A DNA stretch of 64,000 nt from Bacilli bacterium (GTDB taxonomy: Bacteria; Bacillota_I; Bacilli_A; ML615J-28; CAG-698): positions 39 through 64,038 of the forward strand of contig JAQVOS010000002.1 of assembly GCA_028702495.1 (NCBI GenBank), in the 5' to 3' direction. The notes under the pieces were generated by a model that was not told the origin of the DNA, searched no databases, and was given only the letters and a program-made list of their open reading frames with translations. Shown here in pieces: positions 16,967 to 39,991 of this stretch. A program made the translations under genes and the position numbers. Each line of letters starts with the position of its first letter. The stretch's first letter is position 1.

Positions 16967-17061
16967 ATTTTTTCTTTCCTCCTCGATAATTTTTTGTTAG
17001 TTTGTTTATATACTTTAGGACTTTCTCCTAATAGCCAAATAAAAAATATAACTGAAAATGT

Positions 17062-17090: not shown

Positions 17091-17108
17091 TTTTTAGCAA
17101 GCCTTTTT

Positions 17109-18745: not shown

Positions 18746-18748
18746 TTC

Positions 18749-20261: not shown

Positions 20262-20296
20262 TTTCACCTCATAAAAGAAAGATGCCACAGAATTTG
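20262..20296 (-). terminator. Rho-independent terminator after the permease pair
   Basis: Perfect hairpin aagatgccaca-gaattt-tgtggcatctt, followed on the minus strand by UCUUUUAU. Confidence 0.7.
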
Positions 20297-20311
20297 TGGC
20301 ATCTTTGCTCA

Positions 20312-21346
20312 TTACATACCAGTGATGCCTGTTCTTCCTATGCTTTCAACAAATAATTTTTGGATAAAGAAATAAGCAATTAAAAGTGGAAGCATCATTA
20401 ATAAGGCCGCTGTGTTGGTGACTAAACCAAAGAAGAGTGGGTCATCCTTAATTTCGTCACCTAAATTACGAAGTAATTCTCCAAATGATGTGACCATAGT
20501 TGCAGATAGGGATCCTGATCCGGCTGCAAGTTTTGTGGTTAACACAGGGAAAACTCGTTCAAATCGGTAAAGATGGGCATAGTAGTAATCATTGTATTGC
20601 CATACAAAGGCAAAGAGTCCGACGGTGACGGTGGCTCCACCCGCATTTGGAAGCATGACACTCCAAAACGTTCTAATGACACCAGCTCCATCGATTTCTG
20701 CTGATTCTTCGAGTTCAATCGGTAAGTTACGGAAGAACTGAACAAATAAATAGATAAAGATAGCACTACGAAGCCCCATTCCGAAAGCTGACATAATATA
20801 AATTGAGAAGACATTAAAGATAAGGTCGATTCCAAAGAAATTAGTACTCTGGAAGAATAACCATCTTGACAAGTCGAGGGTCTCATTGGGAACCACTAAC
20901 GTAAACAACACTAAGTAGAAGAATATTTTACTACCAGGAAATTTTAATCGAGCAAAAGCATATCCTGCAGTGGCGGTTGCGATGATTTGAATACACATGG
21001 AGAAGAACGATAACACGATTGAGTTTATAAATGTAATATTATAGCTCAAATAGTGATACGCAATTCTAATGTTTTCAAAACTAAAGGTTCCAGGAATCCA
21101 AATGACTTGTGGATCTGTAATATCGGTTGGATAACGAAGAGCAAATGAAAACTTTTGTAACAGTGGTAACAAGATAATGAATGACAAGCCAATTAAGATA
21201 AAGGCACGGATGATGTTACCTCCGACTTCCATTGCTTTCTTTGAACGAACACGTTTTTTGATTGGATTATCCCAATCTTTACGGAATTCTTGATAACGAG
21301 TCCGAAGCTGATCTTTGAATCTAATTTTTGTTGGATTATTCGTCAT
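20312..21346 (-). CDS. Carbohydrate ABC transporter permease (LplC/YtcP-like)
   Basis: Multi-pass membrane protein with an EAA-like loop (ESAEIDGAGVIRTFWSVMLP). Confidence 0.75.
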   Translation of the reverse strand: MTNNPTKIRFKDQLRTRYQEFRKDWDNPIKKRVRSKKAMEVGGNIIRAFILIGLSFIILLPLLQKFSFALRYPTDITDPQVIWIPGTFSFENIRIAYHYLSYNITFINSIVLSFFSMCIQIIATATAGYAFARLKFPGSKIFFYLVLFTLVVPNETLDLSRWLFFQSTNFFGIDLIFNVFSIYIMSAFGMGLRSAIFIYLFVQFFRNLPIELEESAEIDGAGVIRTFWSVMLPNAGGATVTVGLFAFVWQYNDYYYAHLYRFERVFPVLTTKLAAGSGSLSATMVTSFGELLRNLGDEIKDDPLFFGLVTNTAALLMMLPLLIAYFFIQKLFVESIGRTGITGM

Positions 21347-22409
21347 AATAGAACACCGCCTTTGAGAGTAGCCATAATACTAAGGCGACAATGACCATAC
21401 TGACTATACAGAACACCCACGACATCGCAGCATTCACCCCGAAATCAGTGAGTGGGCCCAACGTTGCAGATGCAATTTTATCGGTTGTATTATAAGCTGC
21501 AATAAAAGTAACCAATGGTGAGGTTAAGAATGAATCGACCACGGTATAAACAGCTGCTGTTAGCATCATAGGTGATACCATTGGGAAAGTGATTTTCCAG
21601 AACATTTCATATTGAGTAGCACCTTCAATTTTTGCAGCTTCATATAAGTGTTTGGGAACAGATTGAATTGCTGACAAGAAAATTAGGATTTGAACCCCTG
21701 AATAAGAAATGATGTCATAAATTTTAGCAGATGCGTTACCTAAGAAAGTCACTCCGCCAACAGGAATGTTCGCATTGAGTAAGAAATCTTCAAAGCTAAA
21801 CATTTGGGCAAATAGATCATTCGTCGTCGATTGAATGGTTTGTTGAAGAGCAGTTGCAGAAGTCATGGCGAGATCAATTGCCTGGGAGTTAAATATAACA
21901 GGCATGAAGAAAATAGCACGAACAAAAGCTCTTCCTTTGAATTTTGAATTTAATACAACAGCAATTAATAAACTGAAAATCAAGATAACAGGAATATCGG
22001 AAACGATATCAATAATCGCCTGAACGAGGATTTCTGAGAATGATCCAGAAGAAGTTGCTGCTTCGGTGAATGCATAAATATAGTTTTTAAATCCTACAAA
22101 TTCAAGTTTAATCCCTTGATCAATGACAACGTTATTAAAACTATAATTAACGGAAACAATAAGAGGAATTATAAAGAAGTAAATCAACCCCACGAGGAGA
22201 GGAAGAACGAATACAACACCCCATATTTTCTTTCGTTGACGATAAGGAATGACTCTTGCAAGATAATTGGGAATATATCCCAAAACTCGGGAAATCGCTT
22301 GAACAAATTTTGTTTCACCTAATTTACTAAAGAATTGGCGAAGGATGGTCATGATTTTAGTGAAAAAATGTGAAATGCTTGAAGCAATATTCTGAAAGAA
22401 TTTTTTCAT
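21336..22409 (-). CDS. Carbohydrate ABC transporter permease (LplB/MalF-like)
   Basis: Multi-pass membrane protein with an EAA loop (YEAAKIEGATQYEMFWKITFP). Confidence 0.75.
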   Translation of the reverse strand: MKKFFQNIASSISHFFTKIMTILRQFFSKLGETKFVQAISRVLGYIPNYLARVIPYRQRKKIWGVVFVLPLLVGLIYFFIIPLIVSVNYSFNNVVIDQGIKLEFVGFKNYIYAFTEAATSSGSFSEILVQAIIDIVSDIPVILIFSLLIAVVLNSKFKGRAFVRAIFFMPVIFNSQAIDLAMTSATALQQTIQSTTNDLFAQMFSFEDFLLNANIPVGGVTFLGNASAKIYDIISYSGVQILIFLSAIQSVPKHLYEAAKIEGATQYEMFWKITFPMVSPMMLTAAVYTVVDSFLTSPLVTFIAAYNTTDKIASATLGPLTDFGVNAAMSWVFCIVSMVIVALVLWLLSKAVFYYDE

Positions 22410-22413
22410 ATCA

Positions 22414-25400
22414 TTAACCTCCTATCTTAATGTAATTATATGGATTGATGGTGGTTAGACCATATGTGTAAGCACGATTGCTACCATTAATCACAAGAAC
22501 AACGCCATTGGAATAAGTAACTTTTGAGATATCTTTCGCAATACGCTCATGATTAACTAACTGTCCTCCATGGATGTTAGTTTCATTGATGCGAGTGTTA
22601 AAACTAACGATGGTATCTCTCCAGTTTTCATAATATGTCTTGAAATATTGTGTGTAATCAGTTTCTAACAAGACGTTAGGATTTTCATATGATAATTGGA
22701 AATTTACGTTTGCTCCTGTTTCTAATGCTTTCACAAAATAGTAGTTGGTGCTACGATCGCTCGTTCCATTGACAAGTTCAGTAGTATAATCGAACAATCC
22801 ACTCACAACCAATTGATAGAAAGGAATGGTTTGATCGAAAATCCCATAAGTACTTGAAGTAACAGGAACATCGATGGCAATATCAACATATGGGAATGCA
22901 AAATCGTAAGGAGCGGATAGTTGAACAGATTCAAGCTGCGATTGCAAATATTCAAGAGTTGCTATTTGATAACGGACGCTATCATGATTAAATATCTCAG
23001 ATTTTTTCTTATAATCACCAATTCTCATATTACCTAAATCAGATAAATAAGCACCTGTAATTCCGAAATCATCAAAAGAAGCATAGAGTCTTTCAGCAAG
23101 AGATTGATAATACTTAGGACTAGTATAGTAAGTTGGAGTTAATTTTTTATCGATATACAATGTTGCTAAATTGAATGGATACTGCATCGCATCATTGTTA
23201 CCAACGCTCCTGCTTGTATATTTAATCGTTCCAAAGGGGTATTCATATCCCTTAGAGGAAGTAACATACAATTCAGGATAAAAAGCAATGCTATTATCAT
23301 CGAGATATTGGGCAAGATTTATGAGTCCTTTTTTTCTCCCCAATGCTTCTGAGGCTCTTAGGTAAGCAGTAGTTTCATATTCAAATTCATCATCAGTCCA
23401 AGATGAATAACTTACTGTAAGATTAGCAACACCTAAGTCGAGTAACTCGGATATGATGGTTTTAGCTTGACTAAAGGTTGTTAGGTTGTCTGGTTTCATG
23501 TATTTGATTCCTAGTAACATTTGATAACGTTCAAATGCTCCTAAGAAATTAAGATTTGTTACATTAGTTGTCGTGTTATCTTTGAGTGTTAAATCATATT
23601 TATCAATCAGATATTCACGATATTTTTGAGCGACTCCCGTATAGCCTAGTTCTGTATTTTCTAAGAAAATGAAACGATAAGTGATATCATTGGGAGCTAA
23701 TACTTTTGTCCATTTAGGGAATTCAACAGCATTCCACCCTGTTCCAGCAGTCACATATTCGTTTTCACGAACATTGGTAGTGTAGAAAATGGTGTTAACT
23801 CTATTACTTCCTCTAGGAACATCAGCGACCAATTTAGATTGGGATGCGCCTTGTTCAACAACGGTCATAATTCCTTTTTGGTCAGTCGTGTCGATAAAAC
23901 CATACATGCCAAGCATCAAGTTTTCAACATCTTCAACAGCACGATTGAGCATGAATGCTTTATCTAGCCCATAAACCGATTTACTATAACCAGCATAGTT
24001 TAATTCTGCTTTTCCATTACTGAAGTTGATGATTGCTCCAGATCCATCGGGAATAATCATCATTCCTTCGCGGAAGGGATCATCTTCTTCTGGTCCTATA
24101 CGTTCACTAGCTGTGGTCATTTCCTTTAAAAATTGCACAGAAGTCATGATATAGTCATGGTCATAAATGGGATTTAAAGCTTTGTGATCAGAATCGCGAA
24201 GGGACTCTGATAATACCGTTGCTTCTAAGCCATTATCTGTTAGTATTAATTGCAAGCAAACTTGGAAACGCTCTAAGGATGTTGCTGTCTCAACATTAAA
24301 AAGGGCATTATCCTCTGCTACTTGTTCGAGAGAATACAATTGCTGTACTGGTTTTCCTTCATTATCATATAAGAAGTTTCCTTCGGCATCGCGTTTATGG
24401 TAACCTCCACGAATAATTGGTTCTCCTGATTCCCAAACAATGGGAATCTTATCTTCAGAGTAGTCGGTTTGTTCGAAAGAGGTATACAAGAAACTGTAAC
24501 AAGCTTGCTTTTCCATCGAGGATTTCATGTTGGTATCAAAATAAGAAAGAGAAGGGTCTTCTTTTGAATGAATGACCTTATAATATGACTGACTTAATGA
24601 GTTAAACATTTGACTCGAGAAGAAAGGATTACTAGTACATGGCGAAGTGGGACTATTGAGATGCGTTCCATAACTATTATAAAATGATGGATCAATATCA
24701 CTAATTCTCCAATAACCAAGACTAAGTCCTTCATCAAAACCAGTATCGACAGTAGCAAGATAGTTTTCTTCAATATATTTAACTGCGTCATATGAATACA
24801 CATACCCCATGCCATTAAATTGTAACACTTGGGGGTTGGCTGATAAATTCTGAATTTTCGTTCCGAAGAGGACATTTCCACGGAATCTTTCCTCTAAAGT
24901 GCTTCGATTATATAATTCGATTACTTCGAGTTCGGCTTCTGAAAGTTCAGTCTCTGAAGTATATTTTGCATTATAATTTGCAATGTTGAACTTCACAGGG
25001 AAATAATCATCATTGGCACTAAAACGTCCAATATCGTAAAGGATTTGAACACCACCATCGATATACTTTAGTTTGTAATGACTTTCAGATTCACCGGTTA
25101 AGGTATTCTTAAATTTTACACTACTAAGCATGGTATCATAGGGCGTGGTTTGAGCAGCTCCGTTGGATCTTGCAGCATAATATAACAACAAATTAGCTCC
25201 TGCAGCCGATGTGGTATCATCTTTTGCAGTTTGATATGTAACAGTTGCAGTACTATAATCCCCTGGAGTCGTGCATGATCGCTTATCAACAATGGTTGCA
25301 ATGGTTGTTTCTTCATCAAAGAACATCGCATGTGTTGCTGTTTCACCAATCAATTTATTATGATCATATGTTAAGGTGATGAGAGTCCCATCATCTTCCT

Positions 25401-25563
25401 TTTGACCAGTACTAAAATTGATAAATCCAGTTTCATCAAAAGCAAGGGAATCTTTTTCAAGAGCCGTTATTTTCAAACCTCCAACGAAATAGAGAAGGGT
25501 TAAAACAACAACAACGACAATAATGATATAAGAGACAATATATTTTAGTTTTAAAAATCTCAT
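22414..25563 (-). CDS. Very large (1049 aa) protein with one N-terminal transmembrane anchor and an extracytoplasmic body with no recognisable domain
   Basis: N-terminal TM IVSYIIIVVVVVLTLLYFVGG. The rest is hydrophilic and Thr/Tyr/Asn-rich. It sits immediately upstream of the permease pair, where an SBP gene would be expected. Confidence 0.6.
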   Translation of the reverse strand: MRFLKLKYIVSYIIIVVVVVLTLLYFVGGLKITALEKDSLAFDETGFINFSTGQKEDDGTLITLTYDHNKLIGETATHAMFFDEETTIATIVDKRSCTTPGDYSTATVTYQTAKDDTTSAAGANLLLYYAARSNGAAQTTPYDTMLSSVKFKNTLTGESESHYKLKYIDGGVQILYDIGRFSANDDYFPVKFNIANYNAKYTSETELSEAELEVIELYNRSTLEERFRGNVLFGTKIQNLSANPQVLQFNGMGYVYSYDAVKYIEENYLATVDTGFDEGLSLGYWRISDIDPSFYNSYGTHLNSPTSPCTSNPFFSSQMFNSLSQSYYKVIHSKEDPSLSYFDTNMKSSMEKQACYSFLYTSFEQTDYSEDKIPIVWESGEPIIRGGYHKRDAEGNFLYDNEGKPVQQLYSLEQVAEDNALFNVETATSLERFQVCLQLILTDNGLEATVLSESLRDSDHKALNPIYDHDYIMTSVQFLKEMTTASERIGPEEDDPFREGMMIIPDGSGAIINFSNGKAELNYAGYSKSVYGLDKAFMLNRAVEDVENLMLGMYGFIDTTDQKGIMTVVEQGASQSKLVADVPRGSNRVNTIFYTTNVRENEYVTAGTGWNAVEFPKWTKVLAPNDITYRFIFLENTELGYTGVAQKYREYLIDKYDLTLKDNTTTNVTNLNFLGAFERYQMLLGIKYMKPDNLTTFSQAKTIISELLDLGVANLTVSYSSWTDDEFEYETTAYLRASEALGRKKGLINLAQYLDDNSIAFYPELYVTSSKGYEYPFGTIKYTSRSVGNNDAMQYPFNLATLYIDKKLTPTYYTSPKYYQSLAERLYASFDDFGITGAYLSDLGNMRIGDYKKKSEIFNHDSVRYQIATLEYLQSQLESVQLSAPYDFAFPYVDIAIDVPVTSSTYGIFDQTIPFYQLVVSGLFDYTTELVNGTSDRSTNYYFVKALETGANVNFQLSYENPNVLLETDYTQYFKTYYENWRDTIVSFNTRINETNIHGGQLVNHERIAKDISKVTYSNGVVLVINGSNRAYTYGLTTINPYNYIKIGG

Positions 25564-25573
25564 ATGTTGCCTC

Positions 25574-26251
25574 CTATATTAAATCCCGTAAGGTTATTTC
25601 ACGATATAAGGTATACAAGAATCCGTACATCCGTTGAAATAAGTCATAACTTAGGAGTAATACGAATACAATAATGGATGCTGCAAGTAAGGTTCCTAAA
25701 ATGGTAATAATGCATTTAAAGAGGCCATATTCATGAATGGAAATCATTCCAAAAAAGACCATATAGCCCATTAAAAAGGAACCAATAGAAAGAGTTAAAC
25801 CATAGAATGCAATTTCATCACCTGTTAGAAAATTACTTAAAATAAGTGCAAACCCTGTTGCCCAAATCATGGGGAAAAGAGAATAAGAAATCATCATAAA
25901 GATATCTTTCATTTTTCCTTTTCCATCAGCGAGGGTTGTGACAGACCAGTTTGAAATGGTGATGAGGATGATGGGAGCAATGATGTAAATTATTTCAGCA
26001 ATACTATTCAAATCGCGAATATCATTGTTATTGAGTTCGAATCCTGTGTATTGGAATGATAAGATATTAAGAAGAACCAATACAATAATAAACACGATAC
26101 TAACTTTCATGCTACCGCGTTTCCCACGTTTGAATTCCTCAAATCCTTTGAGTGGATGAAGCATGATATAAACAGGGAATTTGATGTATTCAGAAACGAA
26201 TACTCCCCATCCTTTTTTTAGATTTTCCATAAATTTAGTCATAGGATTCAT
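25574..26251 (-). CDS. Yip1-domain multi-pass membrane protein. The start is probably the ATG at 26249-26251 or 26240-26242
   Basis: Five hydrophobic helices and a Yip1-like topology. RBS AGGAGG immediately upstream of the internal ATGs. Overlaps the stop of the upstream gene. Confidence 0.5.
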   Translation of the reverse strand: MNPMTKFMENLKKGWGVFVSEYIKFPVYIMLHPLKGFEEFKRGKRGSMKVSIVFIIVLVLLNILSFQYTGFELNNNDIRDLNSIAEIIYIIAPIILITISNWSVTTLADGKGKMKDIFMMISYSLFPMIWATGFALILSNFLTGDEIAFYGLTLSIGSFLMGYMVFFGMISIHEYGLFKCIITILGTLLAASIIVFVLLLSYDLFQRMYGFLYTLYREITLRDLI

Positions 26252-28187
26252 CAGCCTCCTGCCGTATATTTCCGATACGTTTCTTTTTGTAGATCCCGTA
26301 GGCAATCATACCAGCGACGATGGCAAGAAGTCCTGCTGTAATATAAGGGAATGATTTACGAATTCTTGCATCACGATATAATTTGAAAGCACGAGAATAC
26401 GCATCACGGTCAGCACCAATTTTAAAATACTCCATGGCTTTTTCGTAATCTTTTTGTTTATTATACATTTTACCAATGCCAATATATGCATATTCATAAT
26501 TTGAATTTTGTTTAACAACTTCCATCCATTTCAATGCTGCTTGATCATTATCACCAACGTATTCAAATTGAACAGCTTCATTGATGAGAGCACCAATATC
26601 GGTATTTTCATATACGAGGATGGCTTTGCTATTCTTGTCAAGCACTAAGATATCATCCCCGTGATAAGTAATGGCAACGGGGTTGCTTAAAGTATCGATT
26701 TGTGCTCCACGTTCAGCAGCAAGGTATAGAGGTTCACCAGAAATATATAAGAGGTTCCCTTCATAATCGTAGGTAAAAAGTTTCCCCATTTTTGAGTCAA
26801 CAACAGTATAAACACCATAGTCATTTACGGTAATACCTGTGAGTTTTGAAGGACCACGAACGGCAGCAGCCGTACTCGAACGAATATAAATGACATCACC
26901 TTTAGGAGCTTGATATCCATTACGACGAATGACATCTTTTCCAGAAGTATTAATCAATTTAATCATGCTATTATCATTGGTGACAATGCCATCCTCATTG
27001 GTGATGGCAAAAGATGTTGAATAGATGAAGCCACTACTATTTGTACACATACTCGTAAAGGAGGTATTGATAATTGAGCTTTGTTTTGATAATTGGGATT
27101 CTGTTGAAATATTTCTCCAGAATATTTCCCATGCACTTAAAGTAACATAGTTCACACCTGTAAAACGATTGAATATACCATCCACACTGAATTGAATGAT
27201 ACCTTCAAAAATATTGTCGGCAATGACATACATTCTCCCTGTGACATCAGTAATAATGTCTTTGGGAGCAAATGTTACACCTTGGAATGAAATATCATCG
27301 GGAACTGTTACAAATTTGACCACTTCATAAGTAAGAGCATCAACGACAACGATTTGGTTGTTGCCTTTGTCACATAAGTAGATGTAATCTTCTCCTGTTT
27401 TTTCAACCACAGAACGATAGACTCCCACCACTCCAGAGAGTTTCAATTGAAAAGAAGTCATATTATCGAGTTCTTCTTGTGAAAATGCGCTGTTCTTATT
27501 GGGGTCAATAACGCTTCCAGGAACTTCAGTTGTCACGACAACTTGAAATTTTTGGGAAATAGAAGGAGTAGGAGTCATTTTTTCCAAGTCAGTTACAGTA
27601 TAAAATTCAGCAGTGACGCTGGTTTTACCAATGCCTTTAGCAACGACATAATCGACTCCGTCAATATTTTCTACTTTTGCGATTTGATCATTGGCGCTTT
27701 TCCATCTCATTTCAACATATTCTGTTGTTACCTCATAGGGAGTAATCACAGCTTTGCCTAGATTAGGATCACCATTTTGAAGGAAAAAGGTATCACGAGC
27801 AACGACCCAATCTTTATTGCTCTTAATCTTTGATAGAACACTCGGTGAGAAATTATCAATGGTTAATTTAAAATCACTGACGGTTTCTTGTAAAACAAAG
27901 TTTTCATCAAAAACAAAGAGTTTATTAGAAATGGAATCAACCACATAAATGGTTTCATTTCCTAAATTATCTTTATAAATGAATAAATCTTCAGGAGATG
28001 TAAAATCTGTGGGTTCAATTCCAAGAGTATCAGCAATATAAGGATCTTGGTTCACAGTTAACCCAATGGTAGAATAGATGGCTTCGCCTTTGTGGTTGTA
28101 GGTATAACCGGTAGCCGCTTTGGCATTGATGGTCGTGAATAGGACGATTGCCGTCAATAGAAAAATGAGAATTTTTGTTTTTCGCAT
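26235..28187 (-). CDS. Secreted, membrane-tethered protein (650 aa): signal peptide, a beta-propeller-like repeat region, C-terminal TPR repeats, then a C-terminal TM anchor with a basic tail
   Basis: Signal peptide MRKTKILIFLLTAIVLFTTINAKA. Repeated short hydrophobic beta-strand-like segments (e.g. YVVDS, YLCDKGNNQIVVVD, ILVLDKNSKAILVYE). TPR-like segment (YEYAYIGIGKMYNKQKDYEKAMEYFKIG). TM ITAGLLAIVAGMIAYGIY followed by KKKR. Confidence 0.55.
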   Translation of the reverse strand: MRKTKILIFLLTAIVLFTTINAKAATGYTYNHKGEAIYSTIGLTVNQDPYIADTLGIEPTDFTSPEDLFIYKDNLGNETIYVVDSISNKLFVFDENFVLQETVSDFKLTIDNFSPSVLSKIKSNKDWVVARDTFFLQNGDPNLGKAVITPYEVTTEYVEMRWKSANDQIAKVENIDGVDYVVAKGIGKTSVTAEFYTVTDLEKMTPTPSISQKFQVVVTTEVPGSVIDPNKNSAFSQEELDNMTSFQLKLSGVVGVYRSVVEKTGEDYIYLCDKGNNQIVVVDALTYEVVKFVTVPDDISFQGVTFAPKDIITDVTGRMYVIADNIFEGIIQFSVDGIFNRFTGVNYVTLSAWEIFWRNISTESQLSKQSSIINTSFTSMCTNSSGFIYSTSFAITNEDGIVTNDNSMIKLINTSGKDVIRRNGYQAPKGDVIYIRSSTAAAVRGPSKLTGITVNDYGVYTVVDSKMGKLFTYDYEGNLLYISGEPLYLAAERGAQIDTLSNPVAITYHGDDILVLDKNSKAILVYENTDIGALINEAVQFEYVGDNDQAALKWMEVVKQNSNYEYAYIGIGKMYNKQKDYEKAMEYFKIGADRDAYSRAFKLYRDARIRKSFPYITAGLLAIVAGMIAYGIYKKKRIGNIRQEADESYD

Positions 28188-28197
28188 GATGACCTCC

Positions 28198-29142
28198 TTA
28201 TTTCATACCTGAATGAGCCATTGTTTCCATAACTTGAGATTGAGTAATCACAAAGACGGAAATAGGAACTAAAATCATTATTAAACTAACCGCAGCTAAG
28301 GTTCCTTGACGAGCAGGACCAGCTGTTGCAATTTGGGTAATGGCATAACTGACCATTTTTAAATCTTCACGATAAATATATTGTGCCCCTGAAGCAGCCC
28401 ATAAGCTTTGGAATAATAAGATTAAGAGTGTTAACCAAGCGGGTTTAACGATTGGCATAACAATTTTCCACAAAATCTTCATATCGCCTGCTCCATCAAG
28501 TTTCGCTGATTCAATATAATCGGTTGGAACTTGAGTCATGAATTGTCTCATAAGGAAGAGACCAAGGGATGAAGCAATGGAAGGAAGGATGAGGGACCAT
28601 TGAGTATCAATCATTCCCAATACATTAAAGATAAGGTAATGAGGAATCGCAGTAACGCTTCCTGGGAACATTAGGGAATACACAATGATGCCCATGATGA
28701 GGCTTCCACCAGGAATTTTGTATTTTGCTAGGGGGTAAGCACACATGGAGGCAATGATGATATGCCCAAGAGTACCAGCGAAAGTGACAAGAATGGTATT
28801 AAAGAAATAGCGTGAGAAGGGAACTAAAGAATTTCCTAAGGCATTGGCTAAGTCAATAAAGTTCACAAGCGTTGGATTTGCCACCCATAGTCTTGGGGGA
28901 TATAGGAACAATTCATTAAGCGGTTTAAAGGCATTAAAGAATGTTAACAACAAAGGTAGCATACTAAATGAGCCAGCAATCGCTAGGAAGACAAAGAGAG
29001 TAATATCGCCCGCTTTGGAACGGTTCACTCTTTTCTTCTTCTTTGAACGAAGAAGAACGGTATAAGCACCGATTTCCGAGAATGGACGAGAATCAATGCG
29101 ACGAGCTTTAATGGCGTTGTAATCTTTTTCTTTTTTAGCCAT
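28198..29142 (-). CDS. Carbohydrate ABC transporter permease (LplC/YtcP-like)
   Basis: EAA loop ESAKLDGAGDMKILWKIVMP and 6 TM segments. Confidence 0.8.
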   Translation of the reverse strand: MAKKEKDYNAIKARRIDSRPFSEIGAYTVLLRSKKKKRVNRSKAGDITLFVFLAIAGSFSMLPLLLTFFNAFKPLNELFLYPPRLWVANPTLVNFIDLANALGNSLVPFSRYFFNTILVTFAGTLGHIIIASMCAYPLAKYKIPGGSLIMGIIVYSLMFPGSVTAIPHYLIFNVLGMIDTQWSLILPSIASSLGLFLMRQFMTQVPTDYIESAKLDGAGDMKILWKIVMPIVKPAWLTLLILLFQSLWAASGAQYIYREDLKMVSYAITQIATAGPARQGTLAAVSLIMILVPISVFVITQSQVMETMAHSGMK

Positions 29143-29144
29143 TA

Positions 29145-30131
29145 TTAGTTACCTACCCTTCTAATCATACGACGAATCAGTTTATTGAGTCCTATGGATG
29201 CTAGGAAGAGGAGCGTTGCAATTGCCGATGCATAACCCATTTCATATCGAATTCCCCCGTAGTCAGATAAGTGGTTCACGATGGTGTGAGCCGCATAGGA
29301 TACAGAGGGGAACCCAGCAAGGGCAGTGGTGATTCCACCAATCCCAAGCGTTCCAGAAATTTGCATAACGGCACTGAATATCAATTGTGGTTTCATTGAT
29401 GGAAGAGTTATATACCATAATTCTTGCCAACGATTACGAATGCCATCAAGAGCTCCAGCTTCATATAATTCTTTATTCACTGATTTTAAACCAGCAACGA
29501 GGGATAAGAACCCTACGCCCAAACTCATCCACAATTGAACGACGATGACAATGGGGAGAATATAGGTCGTGTTGGTTAACCATGTTTGTGGTTCAGTGAT
29601 AAAGCCCCATTCCAAGAGAAAGGCATTGGCATACCCATAAATATCACTTGAAAAAATGAGGGTCCAAATGACAAGAGCATTGGCAGATAATGAAGGGGCA
29701 TAGAAAGCAAGTGTAACAATGGAACGAAGTTTTCCAGGGAGTTCATTAATCAACCAAGCAATCACGAAAGCAGCAACATACCCAATCGGGCCAGTGATGA
29801 CTGCTAATATCAATGTGTTTTTAATTGCAATGATGAAAATTTCATCATCAAGGAATAAGGTAAGATAATTGGTCCATCCAATGAATTTAGGGGCTTCTAA
29901 AATATTATAGGATGTGAAACTCAATGCTAAACTCATGAGGACAGGGATTACTGTGAATGTTACGAAGAGGATTAAATAGGGAAGCATCATGAGGTAAAGT
30001 GTACGGTTTAAGTACATTTTACGACGAACAGGTCCACCTTTTTTACTCCATGCTTCAGCTTTTTCACCCATACGACGCCACCATTGACGAAAAGAGGTCA
30101 AGGCATTTTTCTTTTCAATTGATTGTTGCAT
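29145..30131 (-). CDS. Carbohydrate ABC transporter permease (LplB-like)
   Basis: EAA loop YEAGALDGIRNRWQELWYITLP. Confidence 0.8.
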   Translation of the reverse strand: MQQSIEKKNALTSFRQWWRRMGEKAEAWSKKGGPVRRKMYLNRTLYLMMLPYLILFVTFTVIPVLMSLALSFTSYNILEAPKFIGWTNYLTLFLDDEIFIIAIKNTLILAVITGPIGYVAAFVIAWLINELPGKLRSIVTLAFYAPSLSANALVIWTLIFSSDIYGYANAFLLEWGFITEPQTWLTNTTYILPIVIVVQLWMSLGVGFLSLVAGLKSVNKELYEAGALDGIRNRWQELWYITLPSMKPQLIFSAVMQISGTLGIGGITTALAGFPSVSYAAHTIVNHLSDYGGIRYEMGYASAIATLLFLASIGLNKLIRRMIRRVGN

Positions 30132-30142
30132 CTTAATCCTCC

Positions 30143-33118
30143 TTATTCATCCGATCCAACAGGTAGACCGAATTCTTCACGTTTACGGGTAATTTCATTA
30201 TTGATGGTTTGAATGTATTGTTCAAAGGTGTTACGTGGATTGTAATTGTTATTCACAACTTCACGGAAGGCATTTTCAAGATTTCTTCCTGTATAGTATC
30301 CACCAGCAATTTCAGGAACACCAACGGTTACTTCCCATTGCGAAAGCAAGATTTGTTGTTCTTCAATTGTCCATGCAAGCCGTGTGAATGCTTCCACATT
30401 CGCGGTTGGATGACGAGCTGCTGATCCTAAAATTGCTTCTACTTCACGAGCATAACTGGTTTGTGTATCGGTAGATATCCACCATTTCATAAACTTCCAA
30501 GCCGCTTCTGGATTGTCGGTGTCATTCATCATGACTACGGATGTCCCGCTAGCAGCACCTGAATGGTCAATGGTGTTATCATCTTGACGAGTTCCAGGTA
30601 ATAGTGCAAAAGCCCAACGTCCTTTAATTTCAGGAGCAGATACGGCAAGCGTGTTATATAAGTCGTAGTTGGCAATACCAATTGGCATTTCACCACTTCG
30701 AAAGCGGTTAATGAAGGTTGCTCCAGTAATGGTCAGTGAGAAGCTATGATTTGTATAGAAGTCACACCACCACTCAAAGGCAGACATGGCTTCTTCACTA
30801 TCAAAATTCGATTCGATGTATTCTTCGCCTTGATTGTTTAAGGCATTTCGATAGAAGGACCCGCCTGTTTGATAGAGACGAGAAGCAAATACTTGGTTCA
30901 CGACACTACTTGCTCCCACAGTATTAAGGGGTAGATAGAATTTTAAGTTTTGAATTTGCAATTCAGAAATAAGATTGATCACATCGACCCAAGTTTCTGG
31001 AACATCCCAGTTTTGAGCTTCAAAAATGTCCGTGCGATAGAAAAGCATCAAGAAACTTTGCGTATTGGGAAGACCATAATAACCACCTTGGAATTCATAA
31101 GGGGTCATTGAACTTGGTGCAAACTGTGCGACAACCTCTTCAAAATCTTCAAATGTAGATAGATCATAGGTTGCACCTCGGAGCGCATAATTGACAGGGA
31201 GTCCATTGGCTGCATTGATGGCAATGTCTGGACCTTTCCCGGCAAGGGTTGCTGTCAAGAGAACATCCGGAGATACAATTTTTAAGGTAATGTTTAAATC
31301 TTCTCCAAAATCAGAATCGATGAGGGTACGAATCGCGTTGGCTTGTTCACGACCAGCCATTTCAGAAGTCAATAACCACACTTCGATATTCTCTGCATTT
31401 TCTTTAGCAACGGTGGTTCCGATAGACTCGTAATCAAAGGTAAAGGATTGAATAAATGCTTTTATATTAAACCAAGATCCAATAAAGAAATTGGGGTTGG
31501 CACGTGGTAAATCATAATCATCGCTATGAACAATTAGGTAATCAACCACTAAAGATTGACGTGATACGGTTAAAATCCAAGTACCTAGGGATGAAATATT
31601 GGTACTGAATGTTCCGAGATTTTGTTGAATCAAACGTGGTTTTTTAATGAATTTTCCAAGTTGCAACATAATGGTTTGAAGGGAAGCGGTTTCACTACTC
31701 TTTTCACCACTAATGGAGTTGATGGTATCAGCGACATCGGAAAGTTCTTCAAGAGCATTTTGAAAAGTAGTAATTAGATTTGGAATTTTTGTCGTTAATT
31801 GATAATCCTGATATTTATCTGGATTAATACCTGTTTTTGCGATAATCCTACGATACATATCATTCAAATTGTCAATGACATTTTGTACACGAGCGATTTG
31901 TGCTCCGTAATCTCCTAAAGTGGCTTCCAAAGTAATTTGATGAGTACCTTCGGTTAAATAGAAATAGAAAGGTTTATCTTCAGTTCCTAAAGTCACCATG
32001 CTGAAATCAGAAGTATAAATGAATTTCGCATTTTGAGCTTCAGCGAAAGGAACTTCACCATCAACATATACCGCCCGGGTTGAGAACAATCCACGAGAAG
32101 TGCTTTGTTTTGCCCGAAGAGTGATGTTGTATAATCCACTTTGAGGGACAGTAAATTCCCAAGTAATCCAATCTCCAGGAGTGATCCATTTTGAACCACC
32201 AATGGAGTTAAGAATAATCTTAACGGGATCCGCCGGAGAGTTATAAGCGCTGGAACGATCGGAAGTGGCATAAATGGTGGGTGAAGAACGATAAATGGCA
32301 TTCTCACCTTCGATGAAATCTGTTCCGCTATCACTTGAAGCAGCGATTTCACCAGTCACTTTGTCGTATCCTTTGGTTTCATATTCAGCTTCTACTTCAG
32401 CATAAGTCTTAAAGACTTGTTTGCTGATGATGTGAACAGCAAAAATGCTCATTGCTTCACGAAGTGATTTAAATGTGAGGGTATTAATACCACTGCTAAA
32501 ATAAACTAGATAAGGCTCACTCACATAACCTACTTCATCTTTTACATAACTTGAACGTTTCACTGGTATTTCAATTTGACGAGGACGAATTTGATTTCCT
32601 GTGATATCAGTAATGATTTCACCACCATCGCCCCATACACGTTTAAAAGCTACGTTTTCTAAATCTTGGTAAGGAATCGAACCATTCACATAAATGGTGC
32701 GTTCAATATTTGCTCCACCATCAATTTCAGGAATGTAGTCCACTTTAATGTTATAGAAGCCAGCTGTTGGTACATTAAAACTCCAAGTAGCTGATCCTGA
32801 AGAGGTGGTTTCAAGAGCAAGAGGGGTAGCAGGATAGCTCGCGCTATAATCCTTCACATTAAAATCACCTGTTGCATCTCCTGGCTGTAAAACAATGTCC
32901 ACATTGTTTGGAGTTAGGGCATCGGGATGTTCTTCTATGTAGTTGTTATAAGGTCCGCTAACAATAACGGGTTCAGAAATGGTCGAACGAGAATAGGCAT
33001 GGTCATATCCATAACTATCAACGATAATGAAAAGTAAGAGTGAGACCAACCCGACGAGTAATAACCAAAGGACAACTTTTTTAACTAGTTTCCCTGTAAT
33101 CATGAATTGCTTATTCAT
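30143..33118 (-). CDS. Membrane-anchored extracytoplasmic protein (991 aa). Two tandem ~170-aa carbohydrate-binding-module-like repeats are fused to a C-terminal ~480-aa family-1 sugar-binding protein domain (LplA/YtcQ-like)
   Basis: N-terminal TM VVLWLLLVGLVSLLLFIIV. Internal repeat (YNIKVDYIPEIDGGANIERTIYVNGSIPYQDLENVAFKRVW and YNITLRAKQSTSRGLFSTRAVYVDGEVPFAEAQNAKF). SBP hallmarks in the C-terminal half (ITLKIVSPD...GKGPDI...YYGLPNTQSFLMLFYRTDIFEAQNWDVPETW). Confidence 0.65.
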   Translation of the reverse strand: MNKQFMITGKLVKKVVLWLLLVGLVSLLLFIIVDSYGYDHAYSRSTISEPVIVSGPYNNYIEEHPDALTPNNVDIVLQPGDATGDFNVKDYSASYPATPLALETTSSGSATWSFNVPTAGFYNIKVDYIPEIDGGANIERTIYVNGSIPYQDLENVAFKRVWGDGGEIITDITGNQIRPRQIEIPVKRSSYVKDEVGYVSEPYLVYFSSGINTLTFKSLREAMSIFAVHIISKQVFKTYAEVEAEYETKGYDKVTGEIAASSDSGTDFIEGENAIYRSSPTIYATSDRSSAYNSPADPVKIILNSIGGSKWITPGDWITWEFTVPQSGLYNITLRAKQSTSRGLFSTRAVYVDGEVPFAEAQNAKFIYTSDFSMVTLGTEDKPFYFYLTEGTHQITLEATLGDYGAQIARVQNVIDNLNDMYRRIIAKTGINPDKYQDYQLTTKIPNLITTFQNALEELSDVADTINSISGEKSSETASLQTIMLQLGKFIKKPRLIQQNLGTFSTNISSLGTWILTVSRQSLVVDYLIVHSDDYDLPRANPNFFIGSWFNIKAFIQSFTFDYESIGTTVAKENAENIEVWLLTSEMAGREQANAIRTLIDSDFGEDLNITLKIVSPDVLLTATLAGKGPDIAINAANGLPVNYALRGATYDLSTFEDFEEVVAQFAPSSMTPYEFQGGYYGLPNTQSFLMLFYRTDIFEAQNWDVPETWVDVINLISELQIQNLKFYLPLNTVGASSVVNQVFASRLYQTGGSFYRNALNNQGEEYIESNFDSEEAMSAFEWWCDFYTNHSFSLTITGATFINRFRSGEMPIGIANYDLYNTLAVSAPEIKGRWAFALLPGTRQDDNTIDHSGAASGTSVVMMNDTDNPEAAWKFMKWWISTDTQTSYAREVEAILGSAARHPTANVEAFTRLAWTIEEQQILLSQWEVTVGVPEIAGGYYTGRNLENAFREVVNNNYNPRNTFEQYIQTINNEITRKREEFGLPVGSDE

Positions 33119-34943
33119 AGATTCCTCCTTGCAATATGGTTGTAAATTGGATAAGTGTTTTAATATACTGGATGCTCTTATTTAAGCCGCTTCTTTTATT
33201 GCGAGCCATCCAAAGAGTTTTGAGTCCTTCAATCAATGGTTGTTCCATGGCAATCACGTCCCCAAGCAGTGCTTTACGAGCGGCGAGCGTCAATTCTTGA
33301 TTCATTGATTGATTGATTTTTAGTAATGTTTCTACAAACGAAATTGAGTGTTTAATTTCTTCTTTCACAAGAGGTTCAACTGCAGCAAGTTCTAATTCTT
33401 TGCGTTTTTGTTGGAAGAACCCAGTTAGTATTGTATATTTTTTTGTTGATAAGATTTTATCTTGGGTCTTTAATTTAAAATAAGCAATAGGATCTTTTTC
33501 TTTCATAGCATAGGTTGCCCATAATAAAATATGGAAGGCGTGAGTACCGTTATCAACAAAATTGTTTTCTAGTTGATGATAAGTTCCTAAATTGAGCAAG
33601 CAGTCAGCAATGATATTTTCTTTGTCATGGAAAACATAACGATTGACAAAGTGCTTCAAATCACGATAGACACCAGGGGTGACGCGATAGCTCATGAGGC
33701 CTGCATATGCAAGGGGAACTAGACTAATTGGCAAGAATTGAAGATGTCCAAAGTCTCCCCAATCAGTGAGTAACAGTCCTTTTCCATGATAAGCTTTTAC
33801 ATAGATACAAGCATTGGAAATGGTTTCAAGAGCATCCCAAGTCCGTCCTAAGAAACTACACCAGCTGGCTGTTCCAGGAGCGGCCATGAAAGGAATGTTG
33901 GCATCACTTAAGACTTTCAGATGGCGATCGTAAGGATAAGTCGCATCATATCCCCAATCGACAAATATCATATCTTTGGGAAGTCGAGAGAGAGCATCAT
34001 CATGACGAATGAGAACATCCCCCCAAATAAGGGGTGTTTTTCCATATTTCTTGATTTCATCATAAGCTTTTAAAGTGTAATCAATGTATACATTGGCAAG
34101 ACCTTTGGTCTCAACTTCTGCTTTACTACGTCCACGACCCAATTCAAAGGGTTCATCAAAATTCATATTAAAATAGGGGGATTTTGAATAGGGCAACATG
34201 TCCTGATACATTTTTTGGATGAGTTCAAATGAACGTGGATCCAAAGGATTCAAGGTAGAAGGAGCACGATGTGTTCCCCACAAGAAAATTCCTTCAGGAG
34301 CTTCCGCTAAATCTTTTAACTCATCATGACTTAACCAGTCAGCCATGTGCCCAAATCCATTCTGATTCGGTACTAAATCAATAAAGCGATCCATGGCATA
34401 GGTTTCTAGTTCTTGATATTCTAAAACGCTAATGAATGATTCAGCTTCAAGATATTGAGGAAACGATTTGTACTCAAATGAAAAGCCTTCAACATATAGT
34501 TCAAAGTGATTCATTTTAAGAAGACTCATTAGATCTAATACTTGTTTAATAGTCGAAACTGTTGGAACTTTATTCCGACTAATATCCATCATATAACCAC
34601 GAATGGGAAGATCGGGTTCATCAAAAATGCTGACACACTCCATTAATGGCGATAACATTTGTTTTAGAGTTATAACGGCATAGAAAAAACCAACTGTTTT
34701 ACTTGCATAAACCAGAATGGCATTTTCTTGTACCTCGATCTCATAGGATTCGGGTCTTAAATCTAATTTGTTATAAAAGCGAAGGGAACTATCTTCTTCA
34801 CACCCTAAAGAAAAAGGGGCATCAGTGTTTAGTTCGCGAAAAACACGTTCATCGAATGATTCGAAATAAGCGATTTGCTTTTCCAACCGGAATTGACCAG
34901 CATGGGCAATGTTCTTTTTAGGGCGTGGAAAAATTTTATACAT
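33111..34943 (-). CDS. Cytoplasmic GH20-family beta-N-acetylhexosaminidase. The start is at the ATG at 34941-34943
   Basis: GH20 catalytic-domain features (IRGYMMDISRNKVP, HFELYVEGFSFEY, and the D-E pair in FDEPFE). No signal peptide. GGGAG RBS. 8-nt overlap with the downstream SBP-fusion gene. Confidence 0.65.
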   Translation of the reverse strand: MYKIFPRPKKNIAHAGQFRLEKQIAYFESFDERVFRELNTDAPFSLGCEEDSSLRFYNKLDLRPESYEIEVQENAILVYASKTVGFFYAVITLKQMLSPLMECVSIFDEPDLPIRGYMMDISRNKVPTVSTIKQVLDLMSLLKMNHFELYVEGFSFEYKSFPQYLEAESFISVLEYQELETYAMDRFIDLVPNQNGFGHMADWLSHDELKDLAEAPEGIFLWGTHRAPSTLNPLDPRSFELIQKMYQDMLPYSKSPYFNMNFDEPFELGRGRSKAEVETKGLANVYIDYTLKAYDEIKKYGKTPLIWGDVLIRHDDALSRLPKDMIFVDWGYDATYPYDRHLKVLSDANIPFMAAPGTASWCSFLGRTWDALETISNACIYVKAYHGKGLLLTDWGDFGHLQFLPISLVPLAYAGLMSYRVTPGVYRDLKHFVNRYVFHDKENIIADCLLNLGTYHQLENNFVDNGTHAFHILLWATYAMKEKDPIAYFKLKTQDKILSTKKYTILTGFFQQKRKELELAAVEPLVKEEIKHSISFVETLLKINQSMNQELTLAARKALLGDVIAMEQPLIEGLKTLWMARNKRSGLNKSIQYIKTLIQFTTILQGGIYE

Positions 34944-34980
34944 AGGAACTCCCATCAATAAATGAAATTCAGTATAGACA

Positions 34981-35009
34981 TACCTAATTAATTATACTCT
35001 AAAAATGCT
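34981..35009 (-). promoter_or_regulatory. Sigma-A promoter for the GH20 / SBP-fusion / permease operon (-35 TTGAAA, 17-nt spacer, -10 TATAAT)
   Basis: Minus-strand reading TTGAAAataaagcatttttagagTATAAT, about 35 nt upstream of the GH20 start. Confidence 0.6.
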
Positions 35010-35070
35010 TTATTTTCAAGGACATATTTTAGTAATTCCACGAAAGTTGCCCTCAAAATGTGAGTATTTT

Positions 35071-37967: not shown

Positions 37968-37970
37968 AGA

Positions 37971-39990: not shown

Positions 39991-39991
39991 A

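What the first reader, a model, noticed from the sequence alone, without database searches (positions are those of the whole stretch)
20312..33118. Two LplABC-type importers without ATPase genes, and a 991-aa TM-anchored CBM-CBM-SBP fusion
Both permease pairs have LplB/LplC-like EAA loops and neither is followed by an ATPase gene, which implies a shared MsmX/MsmK-type ATPase encoded elsewhere. The binding component of the second system is unusual. It has an N-terminal transmembrane anchor instead of a lipobox. It then has two tandem ~170-aa repeats that look like carbohydrate-binding modules, followed by a family-1 SBP domain (…YYGLPNTQSF…PETW…). This is a tethered, multivalent glycan-capture protein. 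Its gene overlaps the upstream GH20 gene by 8 nt and is driven by a consensus promoter at 34981-35009.
Basis: partly seen in the sequence, partly recalled or inferred. Interest (0 to 1): 0.65.

Follow-up and report, generated by a model that had tools for sequence, protein, structure and literature searches.

The report
Conserved double-transporter glycan uptake operon
The region is a single nine-gene operon for a widespread but unstudied sugar-uptake module of Firmicutes-type bacteria, with two import channels, a giant membrane-anchored binding protein and three accessory surface proteins, and here it probably scavenges bacterial cell-wall sugars.

Summary
The sequence observations hold. There are two pairs of ABC importer permeases with EAA loops and no importer ATPase in the window. 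The 991-aa protein has an N-terminal TM anchor and no lipobox. It carries two homologous beta-sandwich domains, an unreported four-helix bundle and a family-1 SBP domain. Its gene overlaps GH20 by 8 nt. The promoter lies about 10 nt from the stated position.

The interpretation needs revising. The two permease pairs are not independent importers. In all 78 related loci long enough to judge, the order big SBP, perm, perm, NHL/TPR protein, Yip1, DUF5696, perm, perm is kept. These loci span Acholeplasma-like Bacilli, Paenibacillus and Lachnospiraceae. A second, conventional SBP normally flanks the module; here it sits at 15271-16968.

DUF5696 models confidently as a GH129-like fold. The repeats have a CBM35/CBM6 fold but pass no CBM sequence model. 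The fusion architecture is common, with at least 878 clusters at 50% identity. I found no paper mentioning DUF5696 or PF18952.

Neighbouring glycanases differ by lineage (xylan, mannan, N-glycan, GH20), so the module looks like a generic platform. In this window it lies in a peptidoglycan-salvage island. The likely cargo is GlcNAc/MurNAc oligosaccharides, which is an inference.

The parts
34991..35019 (-). Sigma-70-type promoter-like site, TTGAAA-17-TATAAT (11/12). It lies just downstream of the queH terminator hairpin at 35081-35111.
33111..34958 (-). GH20 beta-N-acetylhexosaminidase, first gene of the operon. It has no signal peptide. The likely true start is the ATG at 34943, after a GGGAG site.
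   Evidence: Pfam Glyco_hydro_20 E 1.8e-16 and Glyco_hydro_20b; sequence
30143..33118 (-). Big SBP, 991 aa. Domains: type-II TM anchor (aa 15-33), CBM35/CBM6-fold domain 1 (aa ~60-240), domain 2 (aa ~255-405), four-helix bundle (aa ~402-520), family-1 SBP domain (aa ~576-991).
29145..30131 (-). Permease A (328 aa), MalF/UgpA-like, with an EAA loop at aa 224.
28198..29142 (-). Permease B (314 aa), MalG/UgpE-like, with an EAA loop at aa 211.
26235..28187 (-). p650: signal peptide, six NHL-like beta-propeller blades (with a lineage-specific insert at aa ~130-230), a TPR pair (aa ~541-599) and a C-terminal TM (aa 615-633).
25574..26305 (-). Yip1-family membrane protein with five TM segments. The likely start is the ATG at 26242 or 26230. 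It is fused to the p650 homologue in L063, L069 and L084.
   Evidence: Pfam Yip1 E 4.8e-11
22414..25563 (-). DUF5696 ectoprotein (1049 aa): N-terminal TM (aa 9-27), an unassigned ~400-aa region, and a GH129-like N-sandwich/(beta/alpha)8 barrel/C-sandwich.
   Evidence: Pfam DUF5696 E 3e-131; AF2 pLDDT 89.8; Foldseek 8rzk E 3.8e-26 and 5wzn E 2.5e-22
21336..22409 (-). Permease C (357 aa), with an EAA loop at aa 257. It is longer than permease A (357 vs 328 aa).
20312..21346 (-). Permease D (344 aa), with an EAA loop at aa 214. It overlaps permease C by 11 nt.
20278..20306 (-). Terminator-like hairpin (12-bp stem) directly after permease D. It is the probable end of the operon.
15271..16968 (-). 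Displaced small SBP (565 aa): lipoprotein (lipobox LVGC) with a Big_2 domain and an SBP body. It is homologous to the conventional SBP that flanks the module in 65 of 84 related loci.

Best explanation
Window 20278-35019 is one operon: promoter, nine tightly packed genes, then a terminator-like hairpin. It encodes a conserved Bacillota glycan-uptake module plus a cytoplasmic GH20.

The core has eight genes.
- A TM-anchored big SBP (two CBM35-fold domains, a four-helix bundle and a family-1 SBP domain).
- CUT1-type permease pair A/B.
- A membrane-anchored NHL-propeller/TPR ectoprotein.
- A Yip1 membrane protein.
- A TM-anchored GH129-fold ectoprotein (DUF5696).
- CUT1-type permease pair C/D.

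A second, conventional lipoprotein SBP belongs to the set. In this genome it has moved 3.3 kb downstream.

Shown: gene content, order, folds, anchoring signals and strict synteny across orders.

Inferred: the ectoproteins sit together at the membrane. Oligosaccharides released outside the cell are held there and handed to the two SBPs. They cross through the two translocons, powered by a shared MsmX-type ATPase encoded elsewhere. Cytoplasmic enzymes then cleave them.

The module itself looks substrate-generic. In this genome the operon-linked GH20 and the surrounding peptidoglycan-salvage genes point to GlcNAc/MurNAc-containing fragments, meaning muropeptides or chito-oligosaccharides.
For: Operon structure.
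- A strong terminator and then an 11/12 promoter lie upstream of GH20. A hairpin follows permease D.
- Intergenic gaps are no more than 11 nt, or the genes overlap.

Synteny.
- 78 of 84 related loci keep all eight core genes in the same order and strand. The other six end at a contig edge.
- The loci include Bacilli MAGs, Acholeplasmataceae, Izemoplasmatales, Paenibacillus, Cohnella, Lederbergia, Gracilibacillus, Lachnospiraceae, Butyrivibrio and Ruminococcaceae.
- One locus is a cyclic permutation of the same set (L085).
- p650 and Yip1 are fused in three loci.
- DUF5696 relatives at only 20-24% identity are still followed directly by a permease pair.

Second SBP. A conventional SBP is adjacent to the module in 65 of 84 loci. 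Its homologue in the window is at 15271-16968.

Importer character. SBP domains and EAA-loop permeases are present. Adjacent genes are LacI, AraC and HisK regulators and catabolic glycanases.

Folds. DUF5696 matches GH129. The SBP repeats match CBM35/CBM6.

Substrate in this window. The operon is flanked by GH3 NagZ, NagB, NamZ, a GH3-MupG fusion, AnmK, MurQ, LdcA, a LysA-M19 fusion, GH18 and GHL10. GH20 is translationally coupled to the big SBP.

ATPase in trans. This is established for Bacillota CUT1 systems (PMC5730181, PMC7658222).
Against: - There is no direct evidence that the proteins form a complex, or for any ligand.
- The big SBP domain is unexpectedly conserved across lineages with different linked glycanases: 41-58% identity, with 79 positions at least 95% invariant. 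This fits poorly with its being the receptor for lineage-specific cargo.
- DUF5696 lacks a universally conserved canonical catalytic pair, so its role as enzyme or binder is open.
- No Pfam CBM model is passed.
- The ATPase could not be found because the contig ends.
- The hairpin at 20278-20306 has a weak T-tract. Read-through into GH3/NagB is possible.
Confidence: 0.7

Rival explanations
1. Two independent LplABC-type importers happen to lie side by side, each using a shared ATPase. The genes between them are unrelated passengers.
For: Each permease pair is a complete MalF/MalG-type heterodimer with EAA loops. Two SBPs exist in most loci.
Against: Order and strand are identical in 78 of 78 informative loci across several orders. 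A cyclic permutation keeps the same set. The DUF5696-perm-perm triad persists at 20-24% identity. p650-Yip1 fusions exist. All nine genes are packed between one promoter and one hairpin.
Confidence: 0.08
2. DUF5696 is not an accessory enzyme. It is the dedicated extracytoplasmic partner of permease pair C/D, acting as receptor or gate. A glycosidase fold has been recruited to deliver cargo directly to an ABC translocon. The small SBP and big SBP then both serve pair A/B, or the small SBP is only auxiliary.
For: The DUF5696 gene always immediately precedes a permease pair, even in distant relatives with N-glycan or other contexts. It is TM-anchored. It has no fully conserved canonical catalytic pair but does have a conserved polar cluster: D/E506, D534, D910, N932, E948. 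Pair C/D proteins are longer than pair A/B (357/344 vs 328/314 aa).
Against: No type I ABC importer is known to use a non-SBP-fold receptor (my own knowledge). A small SBP directly follows pair C/D in 22 loci, which is the classical arrangement for a cognate SBP.
Confidence: 0.2
3. The two CBM-fold domains and the helical bundle of the big SBP do not bind glycan. They are spacers or docking modules that position the SBP domain or contact DUF5696 or p650.
For: No Pfam CBM family threshold is passed; CBM_6 scores 16.8 bits against a cut-off of 28.9. There are 19 and 22 positions at least 95% invariant in domains 1 and 2, including the D171-x3-N175-x3-P179-x-Q181-x-E183 motif. They are kept across lineages with different linked glycanases.
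Against: The closest folds are bona fide CBM35 and CBM6 modules, with TM 0.65-0.75 and up to 21% identity to CsxA CBM35. Some homologues do hit Pfam CBM_35, PF16990.
Confidence: 0.4
4. In this genome the cargo is not peptidoglycan fragments. It is chitin oligosaccharides or N-glycan cores, and the muropeptide genes nearby use other transporters.
For: GH20, GH3 and GH18 act on any beta-GlcNAc glycan. There are weak NCBIfam similarities to the chitobiose SBP NgcE, E 9e-5. A distant DUF5696 locus is N-glycan-linked.
Against: No other importer is encoded in the 64-kb island. The island is dominated by MurNAc-specific and stem-peptide-specific genes: NamZ, MupG, AnmK, MurQ, LdcA and LysA-M19. Acholeplasma/Izemoplasma relatives link the module to a giant Amidase_2 protein.
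Confidence: 0.25
5. The module exports or assembles a surface glycan rather than importing nutrients.
For: There are several large membrane-anchored ectoproteins, and no ATPase gene is present to classify.
Against: BPD_transp_1 permeases with EAA loops together with SBPs define type I importers. The neighbours are catabolic glycanases and sugar-catabolism regulators. Cytoplasmic catabolic enzymes lie in the same operon or island.
Confidence: 0.03

Closest known systems
CUT1-family type I ABC sugar importers of Bacillota energised in trans by MsmX/MsmK (for example B. subtilis AraNPQ and the MsmX-dependent pectin-oligosaccharide importers; PMC5730181, PMC7658222)
   Same: A family-1 SBP, a MalF/MalG-type permease heterodimer with EAA loops, and no ATPase gene in the operon.
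   Different: Here two translocons are locked in one module with three extra conserved membrane or surface proteins. One SBP is a 991-aa TM-anchored multidomain protein rather than a lipoprotein of about 430-550 aa.
B. subtilis LplABC
   Same: An oligosaccharide-type ABC system without its own ATPase.
   Different: LplA is a lipoprotein, whereas the big SBP has a TM anchor and no lipobox. LplB/LplC-specific signatures were not tested. The best model matches are generic UgpA/UgpE and GlcT/GlcU.
Paenibacillus sp. FPU-7 chito-oligosaccharide SBPs NagB1/NagB2 (PDB 7ehp; PMC13311272)
   Same: A cell-surface family-1 SBP for GlcNAc oligomers in a Bacillota member. There is a weak sequence match, E 0.037.
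   Different: These are single-domain SBPs with no CBM-fold repeats, helical bundle or accessory module.
GH129 glycoside hydrolases (NagBb alpha-N-acetylgalactosaminidase 5wzn; ZgGH129 3,6-anhydro-D-galactosidase 8rzk/5opq)
   Same: The overall three-domain fold of the C-terminal ~640 aa of DUF5696 (Foldseek E 1e-22 to 4e-26, TM about 0.6 on the target).
   Different: Sequence identity is only 12-14%, and the sequence-profile match is only E 0.055. DUF5696 has an N-terminal TM plus a ~400-aa extra region. No canonical catalytic pair was identified. It is always encoded next to ABC permeases.
CBM35 / CBM6 carbohydrate-binding modules (2w1w, 2vzp, 2w47, 8j3x)
   Same: The beta-jelly-roll fold of both repeats.
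   Different: Both repeats fall below every Pfam CBM threshold. They are fused to an SBP rather than an enzyme. Ligand-site residues were not assessed.
Bacteroidota Sus-like polysaccharide utilisation systems (analogy only; my own knowledge)
   Same: Surface glycan-binding proteins, a surface glycosidase-fold protein and a dedicated transporter are co-encoded next to lineage-specific glycanases and a regulator.
   Different: The proteins are entirely different (a TonB-dependent SusC/D pair versus ABC translocons), and there is no outer membrane.
B. subtilis YknWXYZ (PMC4887032)
   Same: A Yip1-family membrane protein is an obligatory extra subunit of an ABC transporter.
   Different: YknYZ is a MacB-type exporter for a peptide toxin, not a type I sugar importer.

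Membership tests
Type I ABC importer, CUT1 (carbohydrate uptake transporter 1) | Cluster-B/family-1 extracellular solute-binding protein | tested here: met
   SBP_bac_8 E 1.6e-22 and SBP_bac_1 E 3.7e-18 over aa 595-891. PDB sugar SBPs 5ysb E 1.6e-12 and 5ci5 E 4.9e-10.
Type I ABC importer, CUT1 (carbohydrate uptake transporter 1) | Two MalF/MalG-type permeases with a cytoplasmic EAA loop | tested here: met
   All four permeases hit BPD_transp_1 above the cut-off. EAA-x-DG motifs are at aa 224, 211, 257 and 214. The best NCBIfam matches are UgpA/UgpE, GlcT/GlcU and MalF/MalG.
Type I ABC importer, CUT1 (carbohydrate uptake transporter 1) | MalK/MsmX-type ATPase | tested here: inconclusive
   None is in the 64-kb window; the only two ABC_tran domains are fused to exporter ABC_membrane domains. 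The contig is only 64,140 bp, so the rest of the genome is unseen. ATPase-motif ORFs turn up in 15 of 84 related loci; those annotated or positioned are about 300-aa ATPases upstream of the module, often beside FtsX-type permeases.
LplABC-type system (B. subtilis) | LplA-like lipoprotein SBP (lipobox Cys) | tested here: not met
   The big SBP has no Cys in its first 70 residues and has a type-II TM anchor. The small SBP at 15271-16968 does have a lipobox, LVGC.
LplABC-type system (B. subtilis) | LplB/LplC-specific permease signatures | not tested
   No LplB/LplC reference sequence or model was available in the tools used.
CBM35 / CBM6 | Beta-jelly-roll fold of the family | tested here: met
   AF2 model pLDDT 90.5. 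Foldseek: 2w1w E 7.7e-7 with TM 0.69-0.71; 2vzp TM 0.75 with 21% identity; 8j3x CBM6.
CBM35 / CBM6 | Sequence membership (Pfam CBM_35 or CBM_6 above the gathering score) | tested here: not met
   Domain 2: CBM_6 16.8 bits against a 28.9 cut-off. Domain 1: only sub-threshold Golvesin_C. A few homologues carry PF16990.
CBM35 / CBM6 | Carbohydrate binding | not testable with these tools
   Needs ITC, DSF or a glycan array.
GH129 (for DUF5696) | N-sandwich, (beta/alpha)8 barrel and C-sandwich fold | tested here: met
   Model pLDDT 89.8, pTM 0.82. Foldseek 8rzk E 3.8e-26, 5wzn E 2.5e-22, TM on target 0.58-0.62.
GH129 (for DUF5696) | Conserved catalytic nucleophile and acid/base in the barrel | tested here: inconclusive
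GH129 (for DUF5696) | Significant sequence similarity to family members | tested here: not met
   The profile of 26 homologues against PDB sequences gives 5wzn E 0.055 over 69 residues only. Pfam treats it as a separate family, PF18952.
Yip1 family (PF04893) | Pfam model above threshold and a five-TM topology | tested here: met
   E 4.8e-11, 43.3 bits against a 28.6 cut-off. Five hydrophobic segments.
NHL-repeat six-bladed beta-propeller (for p650) | Six NHL-type blades | tested here: inconclusive
   Pfam gives only faint hits: DUF5128 in the window protein and a weak NHL hit in the L085 homologue. Six DSGNNRI/ADTGN.R-type repeats are visible in the family alignment. No structure was predicted.

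The most novel reading that the evidence does not exclude
The eight-gene set is a previously undescribed, widely distributed multiprotein glycan-import machine of Bacillota. Its parts are the big CBM-fold SBP, permeases A/B, an NHL/TPR ectoprotein, Yip1, the GH129-fold DUF5696 and permeases C/D. In this reading, two ABC translocons are physically coupled through a Yip1/NHL scaffold to a glycosidase-fold ectoprotein that feeds one translocon directly. That would make it a Gram-positive functional counterpart of Sus-like systems. In wall-less or Acholeplasma-like lineages it would have been re-tooled to feed on other bacteria's peptidoglycan.
Probability: 0.3. Interest if true: 0.8.

Novelty: new variant of a known kind. 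Interest (0 to 1): 0.6.

Why it matters
How Gram-positive bacteria take up oligosaccharides is usually described as one SBP, two permeases and a shared ATPase. Here a fixed eight-gene arrangement recurs in relatives from at least 585 species genomes, judged from the 78 informative loci inspected. These range from soil Paenibacillus to gut and rumen Lachnospiraceae and Acholeplasma-like lineages. The arrangement has two translocons, a giant multidomain SBP and three accessory membrane proteins.

The module sits next to xylanases, mannanases, N-glycan enzymes or peptidoglycan-salvage genes, depending on lineage. I found no paper on it. Working out its function would assign a role to DUF5696 and to a bacterial Yip1/NHL pair. 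It could explain how these fibre degraders capture large oligosaccharides.

In the present genome it would also identify a candidate importer for muropeptides in a Bacilli lineage.

Tried and rejected
- Independent importers: rejected on synteny.
- ATPase in the window: a motif scan and Pfam found only exporter half-transporters. Across related loci, ATPase-motif ORFs occur in 15 of 84. The roughly 300-aa ATPase cluster (14 loci) lies almost entirely upstream of the module, often beside FtsX-type (MacB-like) permeases, so I did not treat it as part of the module.
- CBM family assignment by sequence: failed at Pfam thresholds even at E up to 1.
- Literature, no hits: 'DUF5696' and 'PF18952' gave 0 papers. 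'Yip1 + solute-binding protein + permease + polysaccharide' gave 0. The CBM35 + SBP search returned nothing relevant.
- Literature, unlinked lead: the Paenibacillus O199 proteome paper reports 'GH129' and 'CBM35' proteins only on cellulose (PMC4867992). I could not link these to this module. The JDR-2 transcriptome paper had no matching terms.
- Rfam: no riboswitch or leader anywhere in the window.
- Pfam on the DUF5696 N-terminal 388 aa and on the p650 insert: no hits.

Full report
**Observation.** Every gene between 17 kb and 53 kb is on the minus strand.

Pfam places BPD_transp_1 above threshold on four proteins: 29145-30131, 28198-29142, 21336-22409 and 20312-21346. Each carries an EAA-x-DG loop. 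NCBIfam's best matches are UgpA/UgpE, GlcT/GlcU and MalF/MalG, which is generic CUT1. The narrower 'LplB/LplC' label was not testable.

A Walker-A/LSGGQ scan of all six frames, plus Pfam on every ORF of at least 150 aa from 112 to 53447, found only two ABC_tran domains. Both are fused to exporter ABC_membrane domains at 44958-48493. The window is almost the whole 64,140-bp contig of a 'Bacilli bacterium' MAG, so an ATPase in trans cannot be looked for.

**The 991-aa protein.** It starts MNKQFMITGKLVKK followed by a 19-residue hydrophobic stretch. It has no cysteine in the first 70 residues. That makes it a type-II signal anchor, not a lipoprotein. The organism does use lipoboxes: the SBP at 15271-16968 has LVGC.

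- Residues 86-158 align with 283-366 at 30% identity, E 1e-9.
- An AF2 model of residues 36-590, built on 51 homologues, has pLDDT 90.5 and pTM 0.88.
- Foldseek against the PDB returns isolated CBM35 and CBM6 modules. Examples are 2w1w (E 7.7e-7, TM 0.69-0.71), 2vzp (TM 0.75, 21% identity), 2w47 and 8j3x.
- By sequence neither domain reaches any Pfam CBM threshold. CBM_6 scores 16.8 bits against a cut-off of 28.9.
- The C-terminal part is a family-1 SBP.
- The ATG at 33118 follows AAGGAGG and overlaps the GH20 stop by 8 nt.
- The best promoter match is at 35019..34991, directly after a 14-bp terminator hairpin that ends queH.

**What the region is.** Between the two permease pairs lie three genes that belong to the same unit.

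- A 650-aa protein with a signal peptide, six NHL-like repeats, a TPR pair and a C-terminal TM.
- A five-TM Yip1 protein.
- A 1049-aa TM-anchored DUF5696 protein.

Gaps between the nine genes from GH20 to the last permease are at most 11 nt, or the genes overlap. A terminator-like hairpin follows at 20306..20278.

Homologues of the big SBP at 41-53% identity sit in the same nine-gene order. I ran tblastn with the window's proteins on the 84 loci held. All 78 loci whose contig reaches far enough have big SBP, perm, perm, p650, Yip1, DUF5696, perm, perm on one strand.

The taxa include Bacilli MAGs, Acholeplasmataceae, Izemoplasmatales, Paenibacillus, Cohnella, Lederbergia, Gracilibacillus, Lachnospiraceae, Butyrivibrio, Acetatifactor and Ruminococcaceae. 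One Clostridia locus is a cyclic permutation of the same set. In three loci p650 and Yip1 are a single ORF. DUF5696 relatives at only 20-24% identity are still followed immediately by a permease pair. The two 'importers' are therefore two halves of one conserved module.

**A second SBP.** I clustered the flanking ORFs. A conventional SBP_bac_1 protein of about 470 aa lies in 65 of 84 loci, directly upstream of the big SBP (mostly Paenibacillaceae) or directly downstream of the second permease pair (mostly Clostridia). The window's clade lacks it at that position. The 565-aa Big_2-SBP lipoprotein at 15271-16968 is its homologue: 30% identity to the Izemoplasmatales copy, E 9e-38. The canonical set thus has two SBPs and two translocons.

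**Accessory proteins.** The DUF5696 model, built on 26 sequences, has pLDDT 89.8 and pTM 0.82. Foldseek's best hits are the GH129 enzymes ZgGH129 (E 3.8e-26) and NagBb (E 2.5e-22, TM on target about 0.6). GH36, GH101, GH13 and GH31 follow. A sequence profile only reaches 5wzn at E 0.055.

Across 79 module copies the conserved polar residues are D/E506, D534 (100%), D850 (92%), D910 (96%), N932 (100%) and E948 (96%). I could not superpose these on the GH129 catalytic residues, so whether DUF5696 is an enzyme or a binder stays open.

**Substrate.** The glycanase next to the module changes with lineage.

- GH10 and GH43 in Paenibacillus and Butyrivibrio. The two GH10 proteins inspected (L022, L066) have lipoprotein signals.
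- GH5, with a signal peptide in the one copy inspected (L029).
- GH26.
- An N-glycan set next to a distant DUF5696.
- A giant Big_2/Amidase_2 protein in Acholeplasmataceae and Izemoplasmatales.
- GH20 with GHL10 in the window's clade.

LacI, AraC or HisK/AraC regulators are adjacent. This is the pattern of a generic uptake platform placed next to lineage-specific enzymes.

In the window the module is embedded in a peptidoglycan-salvage island. The island holds GH3 NagZ, NagB, NamZ, a GH3-MupG fusion, AnmK, MurQ, a BadF-type kinase, LdcA, a LysA-M19 fusion, a beta-lactamase-fold protein, GH18 and GHL10. No other importer is present. GlcNAc/MurNAc oligosaccharides are therefore the most likely cargo. 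This is inference from context.

**An unexplained point.** The big SBP is more conserved than a specificity determinant should be. Its SBP domain is 41-58% identical across all groups, with 79 positions at least 95% invariant, many of them aromatic. Permeases A/B are 50-67% identical. The small SBP is only 23-30% identical. Either the big SBP binds something common to all contexts, or its surfaces are constrained by protein contacts.

**Novelty.** The fusion architecture is not rare. phmmer with the N-terminal 555 residues against 1.84 billion representatives gives 878 hits at E up to 1e-30. Nearly all are 930-1000 aa long with the match at the same position.

I found no paper mentioning DUF5696 or PF18952, and none combining Yip1 with SBP/permease/polysaccharide terms. 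A Paenibacillus proteome paper notes 'GH129' and 'CBM35' proteins appearing only on cellulose (PMC4867992). This may be the same module but I could not link it.

The parts are known kinds: a CUT1 importer, a CBM fold, a GH129 fold, Yip1 and NHL. The fixed assembly has not been described. I rate it a new variant of a known kind.

**Verdict.** The best explanation, at confidence 0.7, is one operon encoding a conserved two-translocon glycan-uptake module that is energised in trans. Here it is probably dedicated to amino-sugar or peptidoglycan fragments.

Noticed in passing
window 7805-20260 and 35729-44945 (minus strand): The contig is a dense peptidoglycan-salvage island. It holds MurQ, AnmK, a BadF-type sugar kinase, a GH3-MupG fusion (872 aa), NamZ, DUF624, tandem-GNAT proteins, NagB, GH3 NagZ, GHL10, LdcA, a beta-lactamase-fold protein and GH18. 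The closest relatives of the module are Acholeplasmataceae and Izemoplasmatales MAGs. This raises the possibility of a wall-less or wall-poor lineage feeding on other cells' murein.
   Followed up: partly
window 39992-42184 (minus): A 730-aa fusion of a diaminopimelate/ornithine-type PLP decarboxylase with an M19 membrane-dipeptidase domain. It is conserved next to LdcA and the beta-lactamase-fold gene in L001/L002. It looks like a dedicated stem-peptide (mDAP) catabolic enzyme.
   Followed up: no
window 3585-6966 (minus): An FAD-linked oxidase (D-lactate dehydrogenase-like) and EtfA/EtfB genes lie immediately downstream of the MurQ block. They could oxidise the D-lactate released from MurNAc-6P by MurQ.
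   Followed up: no
window 53575-57111 (plus): A 1178-aa protein homologous (35% identity) to the Big_2 + Amidase_2 + beta-helix giant protein that sits just upstream of the module in Acholeplasmataceae L011. It is a probable secreted murein amidase that supplies the importer.
   Followed up: partly
L063 14712-16790, L069 14826-16928, L084 14780-16822: The NHL/TPR protein and Yip1 are fused into one ORF of 681-701 aa. This is Rosetta-stone evidence that the two proteins work together.
   Followed up: partly
L086 176-4585 and L087 1511-7274: Very distant DUF5696 proteins (20-24% identity) are still followed directly by two BPD_transp_1 permeases. In L086 the neighbours are N-glycan enzymes (GH130, GH35, GH29, GH125, GH18).
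   Followed up: partly
window 14475-15158 (minus); L011 21548-22195: A DUF624 (YesL-like) membrane protein recurs next to the module or the small SBP in the window and in Acholeplasma/Izemoplasma loci. Its function is unknown.
   Followed up: no
window 44958-48493 (minus): Two ABC exporter half-transporters (ABC_membrane + ABC_tran) lie directly downstream of GH18. They are the only ATPase domains in the window and are not of importer type.
   Followed up: no
window 26235-28187, aa ~130-230 of the product: The window's NHL/TPR protein carries an insert of about 100 aa between blades that is absent from most homologues. It has no Pfam hit.
   Followed up: partly
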